Assembly: GCF_009914755.1 (NCBI RefSeq)
Contig: NC_060936.1
Strand: one strand, 5' to 3'
Length of the DNA: 64,000 bases
DNA from: the human T2T-CHM13v2.0 reference genome, Homo sapiens
The notes beneath the pieces were generated by a model. It did not search any database, was not told the DNA's origin, and saw nothing but the letters and a program-made list of their open reading frames with translations. A program made the translations under genes and the position numbers. Shown here one piece after another: positions 26,251 to 28,675 of the stretch. Position 1 is the stretch's first letter; each line of letters opens with the position of its first letter.

Positions 26251-27356
26251 TAAGATGCAATAAAATTGTTTTAATTTTTCCCAGTCTACTGGATAGAAAT
26301 GATATCTGTATTTCCCTGATTACTAATGAGATTGCAACATACTTATTAGCCATTTTATTTTTCTTTTTGCAAATTGCTATTCATATTCTTTGCTCACTTT
26401 TATATAAATATGATGCTTCTTAGATTATTGTATTATGACTTTAAGAAGCTCTTTATATATTCATAAAAGAATGATACTTATAACTAACATTTATGTGGTG
26501 CTTATTAGGTTTAATAGACTTAAAAATGTTTTCTATTTATTAGCACATTTCATGGACACTAATTCTATTTTGGTTATATATGATAAAATATGTTTTTTTT
26601 GACTGCTGCCTTATAATATACAGAATATATTCATTTTGGTATATTTAAATTCATTAGCCTATTTTTTTTCAATATCTCTAGGAGTTTTTTGTTGCTACAA
26701 GGGTATTGATATATTTCCGTATATATCCTTTTTAAGTAGTTAACATCTTTATTTTCACATTTAATTATCTAATACCCCTGGAGTTTACTTTCAGCAACAT
26801 TGAGATCTGCTTATTATTATTTTCACAAGAAGACTAGTTGTCTCATCACCATTTGTGTTTTCCTGCTGAATTCTTAAATCTTCTGTCACGTATAAACTTT
26901 CCACAATTGTGTGAATCTGTGTCTGAGCTCTCTATTATGACCAGTTGGTCCATTTATCTATTCCAATGTCAACATACTTTACTACAATTAGTATAACTAC
27001 ATAATATATCCTGGTAGGGATATATTTATTCATCCGCCTTGTTCTTTTAAAATTGTTTTGGTTATGCCCATTCTAATTATTCTTGACAAGTTCATTTTAA
27101 GACCATATCAACATTTTTGGAATTAGATTGGCTCTGTAGATTGTATTTTAGAGAAACTGTAATGTTCATGATATTAAGCCTCTTATATATGAACAGAATT
27201 CGATTTTCAGATTTTCATTTATGTTTATCATCTTTTATGTTTTTGAATAAAGTTTTGTCATTTCTGTCTTTTAAAGATCTATACATCTTTAAAAGATTGG
27301 TACTTCATTATTTTTTGATAATGTAAGTGACAGAATTTTCTACATCAGCTATTTTT

Positions 27357-27534
27357 AAAAAGCATTTGTTAACATTTAATAAACCTCCCCCCATGTGACT
27401 TTAAGTAACCAAGACTAGCCCCATACTCATAAACGCTTTTAATCTTCTCAGCTCTTCTGCTGAAGAATTTGGCTTTCATGATGATAGGCTGCTTTGGGAA
27501 CTTTTCCTTCCCCAGGCAGAACATTTTAGTAGGC
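27357..27534 (-). pseudogene. RPL27A: RPL27A last-exon pseudogene fragment (part of the snoRNA-host retrocopy)
   Basis: Translates to [28 protein letters not shown] versus RPL27[30 protein letters not shown]. Stop-position remnant at 27401-27403, 3'UTR-like agtcacatgg and ATTAAA at 27375-27380. The symbol names the parent gene. Confidence 0.92.
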
Positions 27535-27641
27535 CTAGAAAAACAGAGAAATGGCTTATAATACACCATAGCAGGTACCAACTCCCTGATGAGTATGAGG
27601 AAAGATGCCTCCCAACCCACACCTTCTGGGATCTAGGTAGG

Positions 27642-27765
27642 CCATGTTTCAGATACGCATACTAACACAGTCACTGCTCCTGCCAGTGAATCAAGACCAG
27701 TAGATTCATCGAGAACTCTAGCACACCAGACAAGAGCTGTGTCAGGATGTTACTCTAGTGTCAGC
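27642..27765 (-). ncRNA. SNORA3B: H/ACA snoRNA retrocopy, SNORA3B (SNORA45/ACA3-2) family, probably a pseudogene
   Basis: Minus strand gctgacactagagtaacatcctgacacagctcttgtctggtgtgctagagttctcgatgaatctactggtcttgattcactgg...gaaACAtgg matches SNORA3B as I recall it. The ACA box is 3 nt from the end and the H box is degenerate. It lies 107 nt upstream of the RPL27A last exon, and RPL27A is the known host. The symbol names the parent gene. Confidence 0.85.
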
Positions 27766-28114
27766 TCGAACTTAGCTTTTGAGTGTTTATTCTGGCATAT
27801 AATAGCACAAATTTAATTCCATAACATTCTTTATTTTCCTTTCTCCATATTCAGTTTCCAGATTCAGATTCTTAACCATCTCATTGTTATTTTTGCAGGA
27901 GACAGTAGTTTTCCCTCTTGCTTGGTACAGTCATTAGACATTCTTCATCTTTCATCAGTAATATTCTTAACGTACATTCCCAGCTAAGAGCCTTCTATTT
28001 TTATCTATTGCCAATATGGCAAATTCAAGACTTGTTAAGCTTAAATACATGACCTTCACATGCCTTGCATGTTTAGACTCATCTACTCTTTTTCCATTTT
28101 TTGATCTCTTCCCA

Positions 28115-28675
28115 AGCTCACATGGCTTGTGGTAACTTGTAGTTTATTGCAGGATACCAGCATGCCTGCCCCAGTTACTTGCTGACTGTGGCTAGATGGT
28201 GCCTTTAGTTTTTTGACATGTGGTCCTCTCCAAGGGGAAGTTCACTACACGGCAGCTTGATTATTTTGATTATTTAAAGCCAGTGAGGAAAACAGCCTCT
28301 TCACAAGGCTAAAAGCTAAAAATTTTTCAATAACATTTATTTAGTCAAACAGTGCTTGTTATTTATTCACTCTTTCAATAAATTGAGAACCTCCTACATG
28401 CACTGCAGTGTAGTATGCTTAGCTGCTATGCATACTACACTGTAGTATGCATACACAGTGTAGTATGCTTAGCTGCTATGCTTAGCTACTATGGATAAAT
28501 CAGACATGACCTTTTATATGCTATTATAAAGAGTAACACAGGCACATAATTACATATATCTCATCACTTTTATTATATTCTGTTGGTTGGAAACAAGCCG
28601 CAGGTTCCACTCACACTTAAGAGGAGGGCATTAGACAGAGTAAAGCTACCAAGAGGCAGAAATCATGCTATGTTC
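28115..28675 (-). mobile_element. MLT1-type MaLR LTR remnant, interrupted
   Basis: ctcacatggc...catgtggtcctctcca...ggcagcttg...catcacttttattatattctgttggttggaaacaag. Confidence 0.55.
28406..28493. repeat. Palindromic and direct micro-repeat mosaic
   Basis: cagtgtagtatgc 28406-28418 pairs with gcatactacactg 28430-28442. gcatactaca-c-tgtagtatgc at 28430-28450. 26-bp direct repeat at 28406 and 28456. Confidence 0.88.

What the first reader, a model, noticed from the sequence alone, without database searches (positions are those of the whole stretch)
27339..27780. Fossil of a snoRNA-capped, intron-retaining, polyadenylated RPL27A transcript (SNORA3B + intron + last exon)
Seen, minus strand 5' to 3': a snoRNA-like 124 nt (27765-27642) with ACA 3 nt from its end; 107 nt of intron-like sequence ending in a pyrimidine tract and AG (tttctctgtttttctag, AG at 27536-27535); an exon encoding the RPL27A C-terminus; the 3'UTR with ATTAAA; a short A run. 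A degenerate TSD (27766-27780 versus 27339-27354) abuts the first snoRNA base. Established: RPL27A hosts SNORA3A and SNORA3B in its introns, snoRNA retroposons that carry host sequence are a known class, and 5' snoRNA-ended polyadenylated lncRNAs (SPAs) exist. Inference: this is not an ordinary processed pseudogene, because the intron is kept and upstream exons are absent. The L1 template was probably an RNA trimmed 5' to 3' to the H/ACA snoRNP, with the last intron unspliced and cleavage at the host poly(A) site. That implies an H/ACA-type SPA-like RNA existed in the ancestral germline and may still be made. The H box is damaged, so this copy is probably not a working guide.
Basis: partly seen in the sequence, partly recalled or inferred. 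Interest (0 to 1): 0.9.

Follow-up and report, generated by a model that had tools for sequence, protein, structure and literature searches.

The report
Old SNORA3B–RPL27A snoRNA retrocopy fossil
This is a decayed retrocopy of an RPL27A transcript that began at the intronic snoRNA SNORA3B and ran through the rest of the last intron and the last exon, a kind of snoRNA retroposon described in 2006, so it is real but ordinary.

Summary
Window 27765-27357 (minus strand) is one colinear copy of RPL27A (chr11), running from nt 1 of SNORA3B through the 3' part of the last intron and exon 5 to the host poly(A) site. There is no homology beyond either end. The snoRNA part passes Rfam SNORA3 (58 bits, cut-off 51) but has no H box.

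Two other loci (chr4, chr16 = SNORA3C) have the same architecture, each with its own flanks and target-site duplication. A chr8 copy starts at the same nucleotide but ends in the intron. Of 17 RPL27A retrocopies holding exon 5, 3 are of this type. None of the 17 holds intron 4 upstream of the snoRNA.

It is not new. This is Weber's "Type-3 snoRNA retroposon" (PMC1687206), with the same model. The locus itself appears as retrogene ACA3-2c in Luo & Li's Table 1 (PMC1802619). The window's TSD and A-tail are weak.

What remains of interest: such fossils imply natural H/ACA-capped, polyadenylated RNAs, which a 2024 review still lists as undiscovered. Whether RPL27A makes one today was not tested.

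The parts
27766..27780 (-). Candidate 5' target-site duplication. It begins with AAAA preceded by TC, a one-mismatch L1 endonuclease site.
   Evidence: 11 matches in 16 aligned columns to 27339-27354. Position-constrained P is 0.029 against random positions and 0.137 against A-rich-matched positions, so it is not significant alone.
27642..27765 (-). SNORA3B-derived H/ACA snoRNA pseudogene (RefSeq LOC124900326; 'ACA3-2c' of Luo & Li). The ACA box is kept, the H box is lost, and the 3' hairpin is damaged.
   Evidence: RF00334, 58 bits, model 1-131. (84.2% identity to SNORA3B over 120 sites). (no ANANNA in the hinge; the fold is no longer hairpin-hinge-hairpin).
27535..27641 (-). Copy of the 3' part of RPL27A intron 4 (the last intron), from the base after SNORA3B to the 3' splice site AG.
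   Evidence: 74.5% identity over 106 sites to chr11:8767324-8767430. (the intron part downstream of the snoRNA is present; the upstream part is absent).
27401..27534 (-). Remnant of the coding part of RPL27A exon 5 (C-terminal 42 codons of uL15 plus the stop position). It is disabled by a stop at codon 3 and by frameshifts.
   Evidence: Processed pseudogenes begin to match exactly here.
27357..27400 (-). RPL27A 3'UTR remnant, with the ATTAAA poly(A) signal at 27375-27380 and a cleavage region about 18 nt after it.
   Evidence: The 3'-end motif after the signal is the one carried by the older processed pseudogenes (RPL27AP4, AP2, AP7, AP8, chr20b) and by the chr4 sister copy.
27350..27356 (-). 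Residual A-rich tail (five A, one T, one A). It overlaps the start of the candidate 3' TSD.
   Evidence: Luo & Li list this retrogene without their poly(A) mark (with footnote f).
27339..27354 (-). Candidate 3' target-site duplication.
   Evidence: as for the 5' copy.

Best explanation
The element is a Type-3 snoRNA retroposon in Weber's sense. It is an L1-mediated retrocopy of a roughly 410-nt polyadenylated RPL27A-derived RNA.

The 5' end of that RNA was the mature 5' end of the intronic H/ACA snoRNA SNORA3B. Its body was the remaining 107-108 nt of the last intron plus exon 5. Its 3' end was the normal RPL27A poly(A) site.

Shown by sequence: the boundaries, the colinearity with the parent, the lack of upstream exons and upstream intron, and recurrence at three loci.

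Inferred:
- The H/ACA snoRNP assembled on the unspliced pre-mRNA, or on a lariat-exon or retained-intron intermediate.
- A 5'-to-3' exonuclease removed everything upstream until the snoRNP blocked it. Access could follow an endonucleolytic cut, debranching, or decapping.
- The intron remainder could no longer be spliced, because its 5' splice site was gone.
- L1 ORF2p then copied the poly(A) RNA by target-primed reverse transcription at an AAAA-initiated site.

The copy landed, in the sense direction, in what is now intron 1 of a predicted lncRNA. It has since decayed: K2P 0.25 to the parent, H box lost, reading frame broken. It has no evident function today.
For: Boundaries:
- The single colinear hit runs from SNORA3B nt 1 (chr11:8767193) to the poly(A) region, with no flank homology.
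- The exon-intron map of RPL27A places SNORA3B in the last intron, about 108 nt before exon 5.

Recurrence:
- The chr4 and chr16 copies have the same span but unrelated flanks.
- Each has its own TSD of 14-17 nt beginning with AAAA.
- Copy-to-copy distances (0.28-0.35) exceed copy-to-parent distances (0.11-0.25), as expected for independent insertions from the parent lineage.
- A chr8 copy with a perfect 14-nt TSD starts at the same nucleotide, but its A-tail begins 20 nt before the 3' splice site.

Control:
- Among 17 retrocopies holding exon 5, 3 are snoRNA + downstream intron + exon 5, 12 are spliced exon 4-exon 5, and 2 hold exon 5 only.
- 0 of 17 hold intron 4 upstream of the snoRNA. Intron retention therefore occurs only together with the snoRNA 5' end.

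3' end: the same cleavage region as in old processed pseudogenes.

Literature:
- Weber's definition and model of Type-3 snoRTs match point by point.
- Luo & Li describe retrogenes from 'partially processed, exon-containing hnRNAs' and list this locus.
Against: - The window copy's own hallmarks of L1 insertion are weak. The A-tail is only 7 nt, and the TSD is not significant by itself.
- The empty site in other species could not be examined.
- The RNA intermediate is inferred from DNA only. Neither the exonuclease, nor the way the upstream part was removed, nor the cell compartment is shown.
- A cryptic transcription start at the snoRNA's first base would give the same DNA.
- Genome counts are lower bounds. 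Only 42 of 177,537 first-look candidates were scored, and matches in closed regions are hidden.
Confidence: 0.9

Rival explanations
1. It is a DNA-level (segmental) duplication of part of the RPL27A locus.
For: None found. It is considered only because an intron is present.
Against: Homology stops at snoRNA nt 1 and at the poly(A) site. An A-run and a candidate TSD sit at the ends. Three sister copies with the same ends lie in unrelated flanks.
Confidence: 0.01
2. It is an ordinary retrocopy of an intron-4-retaining RPL27A mRNA that L1 reverse transcriptase happened to truncate at the snoRNA's 5' end.
For: 5' truncation is common. One SNORA3B copy (chr5) and one SNORA3A copy (chr21:38.37M) are truncated inside the snoRNA.
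Against: 4 of 5 SNORA3B-derived copies end within 2 nt of the same base. 0 of 17 exon-5 retrocopies hold any intron 4 sequence upstream of the snoRNA. A snoRNP that blocked the reverse transcriptase would stop it at the snoRNA's 3' side, not its 5' side.
Confidence: 0.03
3. It is a template-switch chimera. L1 RT copied the 3' end of an RPL27A RNA and then jumped onto a free mature SNORA3B, as happens for U6-mRNA chimeric retrogenes.
For: Such chimeras exist for U6, U3, 5S and 7SL. This is discussed in Weber and in Luo & Li.
Against: The sequence after the snoRNA is the contiguous parental intron, with no junction, so a single RNA explains it. A switch would have to occur exactly at the genomic neighbour base in three independent events.
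Confidence: 0.01
4. The template was a capped transcript started by a cryptic promoter at or just before SNORA3B inside intron 4, not an exonuclease-trimmed RNA.
For: DNA alone cannot tell a transcription start from a trimmed end.
Against: The 5' end coincides with the mature snoRNA end. It is shared by the chr8 copy, whose 3' end suggests an excised-intron origin. Weber reports the same coincidence for all three retroposon types and for many snoRNAs.
Confidence: 0.05

Closest known systems
Type-3 snoRNA retroposons (snoRTs), e.g. U70/RPL10 (Weber 2006, PLoS Genet, PMC1687206)
   Same: They start at the mature snoRNA 5' end, then hold the entire downstream intron, then the processed 3' exon(s), then a poly(A) tail and a TSD. 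The host is a ribosomal-protein gene. Such copies are often annotated only as a pseudogene or only as a snoRNA. The proposed origin is the same: a cut followed by 5'-to-3' trimming to the snoRNA, with normal 3' end formation.
   Different: Here only one exon lies downstream, so no splicing is recorded in the copy. The share of retrocopies is lower (3 of 17 here, against 30 of 42 reported for RPL10). RPL27A and ACA3 are not named in Weber's main text. The supplements were not readable.
H/ACA retrogenes from 'partially processed, exon-containing hnRNAs' (Luo & Li, NAR 2007, PMC1802619), including the entries ACA3-2c (chr12) and ACA3-2b (chr16)
   Same: It is the same locus. Their Table 1 gives ACA3-2c on chr12 at 83101233 (build 36.1), 80.0% identity, 'Retrogene', without the poly(A) mark. 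The only SNORA3-family hit on chr12 is this one.
   Different: The table gives only the snoRNA part. The main text does not say that ACA3-2c carries the intron and exon 5. The chr4 and chr8 copies are not in their table.
SPA lncRNAs (5' snoRNA-capped, 3' polyadenylated; SPA1/SPA2 of the Prader-Willi region) and the cytoplasmic SPA from NOP56/SNORD86
   Same: The inferred template has the same end structure: a snoRNP-protected 5' end created by a 5'-to-3' exonuclease, and a canonical poly(A) 3' end (as described in the reviews PMC11028025 and PMC10557570; passages read).
   Different: All natural SPAs named in those passages are capped by box C/D snoRNAs. An H/ACA cap was shown only by swapping SNORA5C into SPA1. 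SPAs are known as RNAs, whereas here only a DNA fossil exists. PWS SPAs arise from read-through after an upstream poly(A) site, not from an unspliced last intron.
Dyskerin-bound cytoplasmic H/ACA snoRNA-retaining transcripts and their 3' fragments (Genome Biol 2022, PMC9394076)
   Same: They are polyadenylated host transcripts that keep an H/ACA-snoRNA intron. They are 5'-shortened, bound by dyskerin and present in the cytoplasm, which is where L1 RNPs could meet them.
   Different: The EIF4A1 fragment mapped by 5'-RACE starts at the end of the preceding exon, not at the snoRNA. RPL27A and SNORA3 are not mentioned in the main text.

Membership tests
Type-3 snoRNA retroposon (Weber 2006) | [quoted passage not shown] | tested here: met
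   Window 27765 aligns to chr11:8767193, the annotated SNORA3B nt 1 and Rfam model position 1. There is no homology upstream.
Type-3 snoRNA retroposon (Weber 2006) | Contains the entire intron sequence downstream of the snoRNA in the parental host gene. | tested here: met
   27641-27535 aligns to chr11:8767324-8767430 up to the AG.
Type-3 snoRNA retroposon (Weber 2006) | Followed by the processed 3' exon(s) of the host gene, up to its poly(A) site. | tested here: met
   Exon 5, the only downstream exon, is present to the cleavage region used by old processed pseudogenes.
Type-3 snoRNA retroposon (Weber 2006) | A-rich tail. | tested here: inconclusive
   Only 7 nt remain (27356-27350). The sister copies have clear tails.
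Type-3 snoRNA retroposon (Weber 2006) | Target-site duplication of about 8-19 bp at an L1-type site. | tested here: inconclusive
   11 matches in 16 columns. P is 0.029 (position-constrained), 0.137 (A-rich matched) and 0.25-0.67 (unconstrained). It starts with AAAA, like the three sister copies.
Type-3 snoRNA retroposon (Weber 2006) | The insertion site is shown by an empty orthologous site in another species. | not testable with these tools
Functional H/ACA snoRNA of the SNORA3 family (Rfam RF00334) | Covariance-model score at or above the gathering threshold. | tested here: met
   58.0 bits against 51. The parent scores 146.4 bits.
Functional H/ACA snoRNA of the SNORA3 family (Rfam RF00334) | H box (ANANNA) in the hinge. 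| tested here: not met
   No ANANNA at nt 50-75. There is a 2-nt gap at the H-box position in the model alignment.
Functional H/ACA snoRNA of the SNORA3 family (Rfam RF00334) | ACA box 3 nt from the 3' end. | tested here: met
   ACA at 27647-27645, with the end at 27642.
Functional H/ACA snoRNA of the SNORA3 family (Rfam RF00334) | Hairpin-hinge-hairpin-tail fold. | tested here: not met
   A 4-nt gap and several non-standard pairs lie in the 3' hairpin. The MFE fold is not two hairpins, and its energy is -35.3 against -52.2 kcal/mol for the parent.
SPA / cSPA lncRNA (as the template RNA) | An RNA 5' end formed by a snoRNA and protected by its snoRNP. | not testable with these tools
   Inferred only from the DNA boundary shared by 4 of 5 copies.
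SPA / cSPA lncRNA (as the template RNA) | A 3' end that is cleaved and polyadenylated at a poly(A) signal. | tested here: met
   At the DNA level, ATTAAA is followed by a cleavage region shared with processed pseudogenes.
SPA / cSPA lncRNA (as the template RNA) | The RNA accumulates in cells. | not testable with these tools
Classical processed pseudogene | A copy of a fully spliced mRNA with no intron sequence. | tested here: not met
   The intron 4 remainder and the snoRNA are present, and exons 1-4 are absent.

The most novel reading that the evidence does not exclude
Type-3 snoRNA retroposons such as this one may be a genomic fossil record of natural H/ACA-snoRNA-capped, polyadenylated (SPA- or cSPA-like) RNAs. 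A 2024 review still lists that RNA class as expected but not yet found.

RPL27A gave rise to at least three such insertions of clearly different ages: K2P 0.25, 0.23 and 0.11 to the parent. On this reading the gene has produced a SNORA3B-capped, last-intron-plus-last-exon poly(A) RNA in the germline over a long span of mammalian evolution, and still does.

Of the papers I could search, only two cite both the retroposon paper and the SPA paper. In the passages shown for my search terms, neither of them links the two.
Probability: 0.4. Interest if true: 0.5.

Novelty: already known. Interest (0 to 1): 0.2.

Why it matters
As a locus it matters little. It is a dead, old retrocopy of a catalogued kind, and RefSeq annotates only its snoRNA part as a pseudogene.

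Its modest value is twofold.

First, together with its chr4, chr16 and chr8 sisters, it gives a clean, internally controlled example. Intron retention is seen only in copies that start at the snoRNA (0 of 17 otherwise). This shows that an H/ACA snoRNP can define the 5' end of a polyadenylated host-gene RNA in the germline.

Second, it suggests a cheap way to nominate present-day H/ACA-capped SPA-like RNAs for direct RNA tests. Host genes with Type-3 retroposons (RPL10/U70, the ACA40 host, RPL27A/SNORA3B) are the obvious candidates.

Tried and rejected
- Segmental duplication was rejected. There is no flank homology in the genome search with a 701-nt query or in BLAST with a 900-nt query against all fetched loci.
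- I first suspected that the motif shared by the window and chr4 copies after the poly(A) signal, which is absent from today's parent, meant that one copy derived from the other. That was rejected. Five older processed pseudogenes carry the same motif, so it belonged to the parental 3'UTR at the time.
- The TSD tests gave no independent support for the window's TSD. Three local-alignment scorings gave P 0.25-0.67. The constrained test is borderline.
- I looked for SNORA3A-capped copies carrying spliced exons 4-5 and found none. The two SNORA3A-derived loci on chr21 hold only intron 3 sequence.
- Literature: 'SNORA3C' gave 0 papers. A search for RPL27A / SNORA3B / SNORA45 with intron-retention terms gave nothing relevant; all 8 listed papers showed 0 occurrences of SNORA3B and SNORA45. 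RPL27A, ACA3 and ACA45 have 0 occurrences in Weber's main text. RPL27A and SNORA3 have 0 occurrences in PMC9394076 and PMC8176728.
- Supplements of Weber 2006 (Figure S3, full Table 3) and of Luo & Li could not be opened. They may already show this element's full structure.
- Dating by orthologous empty sites was not possible, because no other vertebrate genome is available here.
- The age range in the report rests on substitution rates that I recalled, not on any call.
Full report
**What is there**

On the minus strand of the window, the stretch 27765-27642 matches the Rfam SNORA3 model end to end: 58.0 bits, gathering score 51, E 4.6e-10. RefSeq calls it pseudogene LOC124900326.

A genome-wide DNA search with 27200-27900, and a BLAST of 27100-28000 against the fetched loci, give one colinear match to the RPL27A locus. 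Window 27765-27368 equals chr11:8767193-8767593 at 76.7% identity, E 1e-78. The first matched parental base is the annotated first base of SNORA3B. Nothing upstream of 27765 matches chr11. Downstream, the BLAST match stops at 27368, comparison with old pseudogenes (see "The 3' end") carries the templated sequence to about 27357, and nothing beyond that matches chr11.

**Structure of the parent**

Aligning four processed pseudogenes to the locus gives the RPL27A exon map.
- There are five exons.
- SNORA3A sits in intron 3.
- SNORA3B sits in the last intron, intron 4, about 545 nt from its 5' end and about 108 nt before exon 5.

Exon 5 translates to the last 42 residues of RPL27A/uL15, which match residues 107-148 of the human ribosome chains in the PDB.

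The window element is therefore snoRNA (27765-27642), then the rest of the last intron up to the AG (27641-27535), then exon 5 (27534 to about 27357). The coding remnant has a stop at its third codon and frameshifts.

**The 3' end**

After ATTAAA (27380-27375), the window carries a short motif that today's parent lacks. I first took this as a sign that the window and chr4 copies were related to each other.

The older processed pseudogenes carry the same motif directly before their A-tails (RPL27AP4, AP2, AP7, AP8 and a chr20 copy). Younger ones (AP6, RPL27AP, AP5) carry the modern version. So the motif was the parental 3'UTR end at the time, and the element ends at the host's normal cleavage region.

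What follows is only five A, one T and one A (27356-27350).

**TSD**

The proposed repeat (27766-27780 versus 27339-27354) has 11 matches in 16 columns.
- Unconstrained local alignment is no better than chance: P 0.25-0.67.
- When the repeat is forced to abut both ends, P is 0.029 against random window positions and 0.137 against A-rich-matched positions.

It is compatible with an old 15-nt TSD that begins with AAAA, but it proves nothing alone.

**Sister copies**

This is the strongest evidence.

| Locus | Annotation | Span | Rfam SNORA3 bits | TSD and tail |
|---|---|---|---|---|
| chr16:2816691-2817106 | RefSeq SNORA3C | snoRNA nt 1 to poly(A) site | 98.9 | Own AAAA-initiated TSD, clear A-rich tail |
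| chr4:76607608-76608001 | LOC124900180 | snoRNA nt 1 to poly(A) site | 84.9 | Own AAAA-initiated TSD, clear A-rich tail |
| chr8:56498131-56498327 | LOC124900263 (pseudogene) | snoRNA nt 1 into the intron | 66.5 | Perfect 14-nt TSD; A-tail begins 20 nt before the 3' splice site |
| chr5:158250154-158250221 | none | snoRNA 3' hairpin plus 8 intron bases | not listed | Long A-tail |

- The chr16 and chr4 copies lose homology to the parent and to each other outside the shared span.
- The chr8 copy is Weber's Type 2, near the branch point.
- The chr5 fragment is a 5'-truncated Type 1.

In total, 4 of 5 SNORA3B-derived copies start within 2 nt of snoRNA nt 1. One is truncated inside the snoRNA. 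None extends upstream.

K2P distances to the parent are 0.246 (window), 0.234 (chr4) and 0.111 (chr16). Copy-to-copy distances are larger, at 0.28-0.35. That fits independent insertions at different times.

The parent and chr16 share a 4-nt repeat at the snoRNA's 3' end that the window, chr4 and chr8 copies lack. This again makes chr16 the younger copy.

**Census and control**

A search with the parental intron remainder plus exon 5 finds 17 retrocopies. Mapping their parts onto the gene gives:
- 3 with snoRNA + downstream intron + exon 5 and nothing else (chr12, chr4, chr16);
- 12 with exon 4 spliced to exon 5;
- 2 with exon 5 only;
- 0 of 17 with intron 4 sequence upstream of the snoRNA.

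Intron retention is thus seen only in copies whose 5' end is the snoRNA. This argues against chance truncation of an intron-retaining mRNA.

These counts are lower bounds. The Rfam genome scan scored only 42 of 177,537 candidates, and closed regions are hidden.

**State of the copy**

- The hinge has no ANANNA motif. There is a 2-nt gap at the H box in the model alignment.
- The 3' hairpin has a 4-nt gap and several broken pairs.
- The predicted fold is no longer two hairpins.
- The chr4 copy also lacks an H box, although RefSeq labels it a snoRNA. chr16 and chr8 keep theirs.
- The window element is not soft-masked as a repeat. It lies in the sense direction in intron 1 of the Gnomon lncRNA LOC107984536.

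**Mechanism**

The DNA shows a single contiguous RNA template. Its 5' end was the mature snoRNA end and its 3' end was the host poly(A) site.

The rest is inference from established snoRNP biology and from the literature I read.
- The H/ACA snoRNP assembles on the nascent intron.
- The upstream part is removed by a 5'-to-3' exonuclease that the snoRNP stops.
- The intron remainder cannot be spliced once its 5' splice site is gone.
- L1 copies the poly(A) RNA.

How the exonuclease gains access is open. The options are an endonucleolytic cut (Weber's proposal), debranching of a lariat-exon intermediate, or decapping or NMD in the cytoplasm, as for the NOP56 cSPA.

**Age**

This rests on substitution rates I recalled (about 1-2.2e-9 per site per year), not on a call. 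With those rates, a K2P of 0.25-0.33 puts the insertion very roughly at 60-150 million years.

**Comparison with what is known**

Weber 2006 (PMC1687206; abstract and sections 6, 7, 8 and 13 part 1 read) defines three snoRT types. [quoted passage not shown] For U70/RPL10, 30 of 42 pseudogenes are of this type.

Luo & Li (PMC1802619; abstract, Table 1 rows shown and section 10 part 2, and section 11 read) list three relevant rows:
- 'ACA3-2c, intergenic, chr12, 83101233, 80.0%, Retrogene, AC090679';
- ACA3-2b on chr16 (2786410);
- ACA3b on chr21.

The only SNORA3-family hit on chr12 is the window's, so I take ACA3-2c to be this locus. No lift-over was run. The entry lacks their poly(A) mark, in line with the short tail seen here. 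The chr4 and chr8 copies are not in their table.

Neither main text states that ACA3-2c carries intron and exon. The supplements were closed.

**The SPA angle**

Reviews describe SPAs as snoRNA-capped, polyadenylated lncRNAs (PMC11028025 and PMC10557570; passages read).
- All natural examples named there are box C/D (SNORD107, SNORD109A, SNORD86).
- An H/ACA cap was shown only by substituting SNORA5C.
- The 2024 review expects natural H/ACA-capped ones to be found.

The dyskerin study (PMC9394076; passages read) reports cytoplasmic, 5'-shortened H/ACA-intron-retaining transcripts. The mapped EIF4A1 end lies in the preceding exon, not at the snoRNA.

Only two searchable papers cite both Weber 2006 and the SPA paper. 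In the passages shown for my search terms, neither connects them. It relabels Weber's model rather than adding a discovery, and nothing here shows that the RNA exists today.

**Verdict**

- Novelty is low: a known class and a catalogued locus.
- Interest is 0.2.

Noticed in passing
window 28395-28489: A long near-perfect hairpin or palindrome. It gives sub-threshold matches on both strands to several miRNA-precursor models (best is mir-2319, 31.9 bits against a gathering score of 89). It is probably an inverted repeat of a simple motif rather than a miRNA gene.
   Followed up: no
L015 (chr8:56498131-56498327, minus): A SNORA3B retrocopy with a perfect 14-nt TSD. It starts at the snoRNA 5' end, and its A-tail begins 20 nt before the parental 3' splice site, near the expected branch point. 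This is Weber's Type-2 pattern and suggests polyadenylation of a trimmed excised intron.
   Followed up: partly
L031 (chr21:38375607-38375979): A 5'-truncated SNORA3A-derived copy (the last 13 nt of the snoRNA). It runs through 360 nt of RPL27A intron 3 to within one base of the intron's 3' end, then an A-rich tail, and is flanked by a perfect 15-nt TSD. In effect it is a retrocopy of an excised, polyadenylated intron, 90.9% identical to the parent.
   Followed up: partly
L032 (chr21:40272520-40272884): A SNORA3A-derived copy (Rfam 42.9 bits, below threshold) with 263 nt of intron 3. An Alu lies about 30 nt after the match ends. It is probably 'ACA3b' of Luo & Li.
   Followed up: partly
L029 (chr5:158250154-158250221, minus): A 68-nt fragment consisting of the SNORA3B 3' hairpin, 8 intron bases and a long A-tail. 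This is a 5'-truncated Type-1 snoRNA retroposon and is not annotated.
   Followed up: partly
L003 (chr4:76607607-76607731): RefSeq annotates this sister copy as a snoRNA (LOC124900180, in the sense direction within ANKRD17-DT). Its hinge has no ANANNA H box and its fold is poor, so it may be a pseudogene like the window's copy.
   Followed up: partly
L002 (chr11 RPL27A: SNORA3B 3' end, intron 4 and 3'UTR): The parental gene has changed since the old copies were made. There is a 4-nt tandem repeat at the snoRNA 3' end, shared with chr16 only. There is a 3-nt loss in the intron remainder, not shared by any copy. The 3'UTR end after ATTAAA is also altered.
   Followed up: partly
L005 (chr20 RPL27AP): This processed pseudogene is interrupted by an insertion of about 250 nt. 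The insertion matches the repeats inside RPL27A introns and is presumably an Alu.
   Followed up: no
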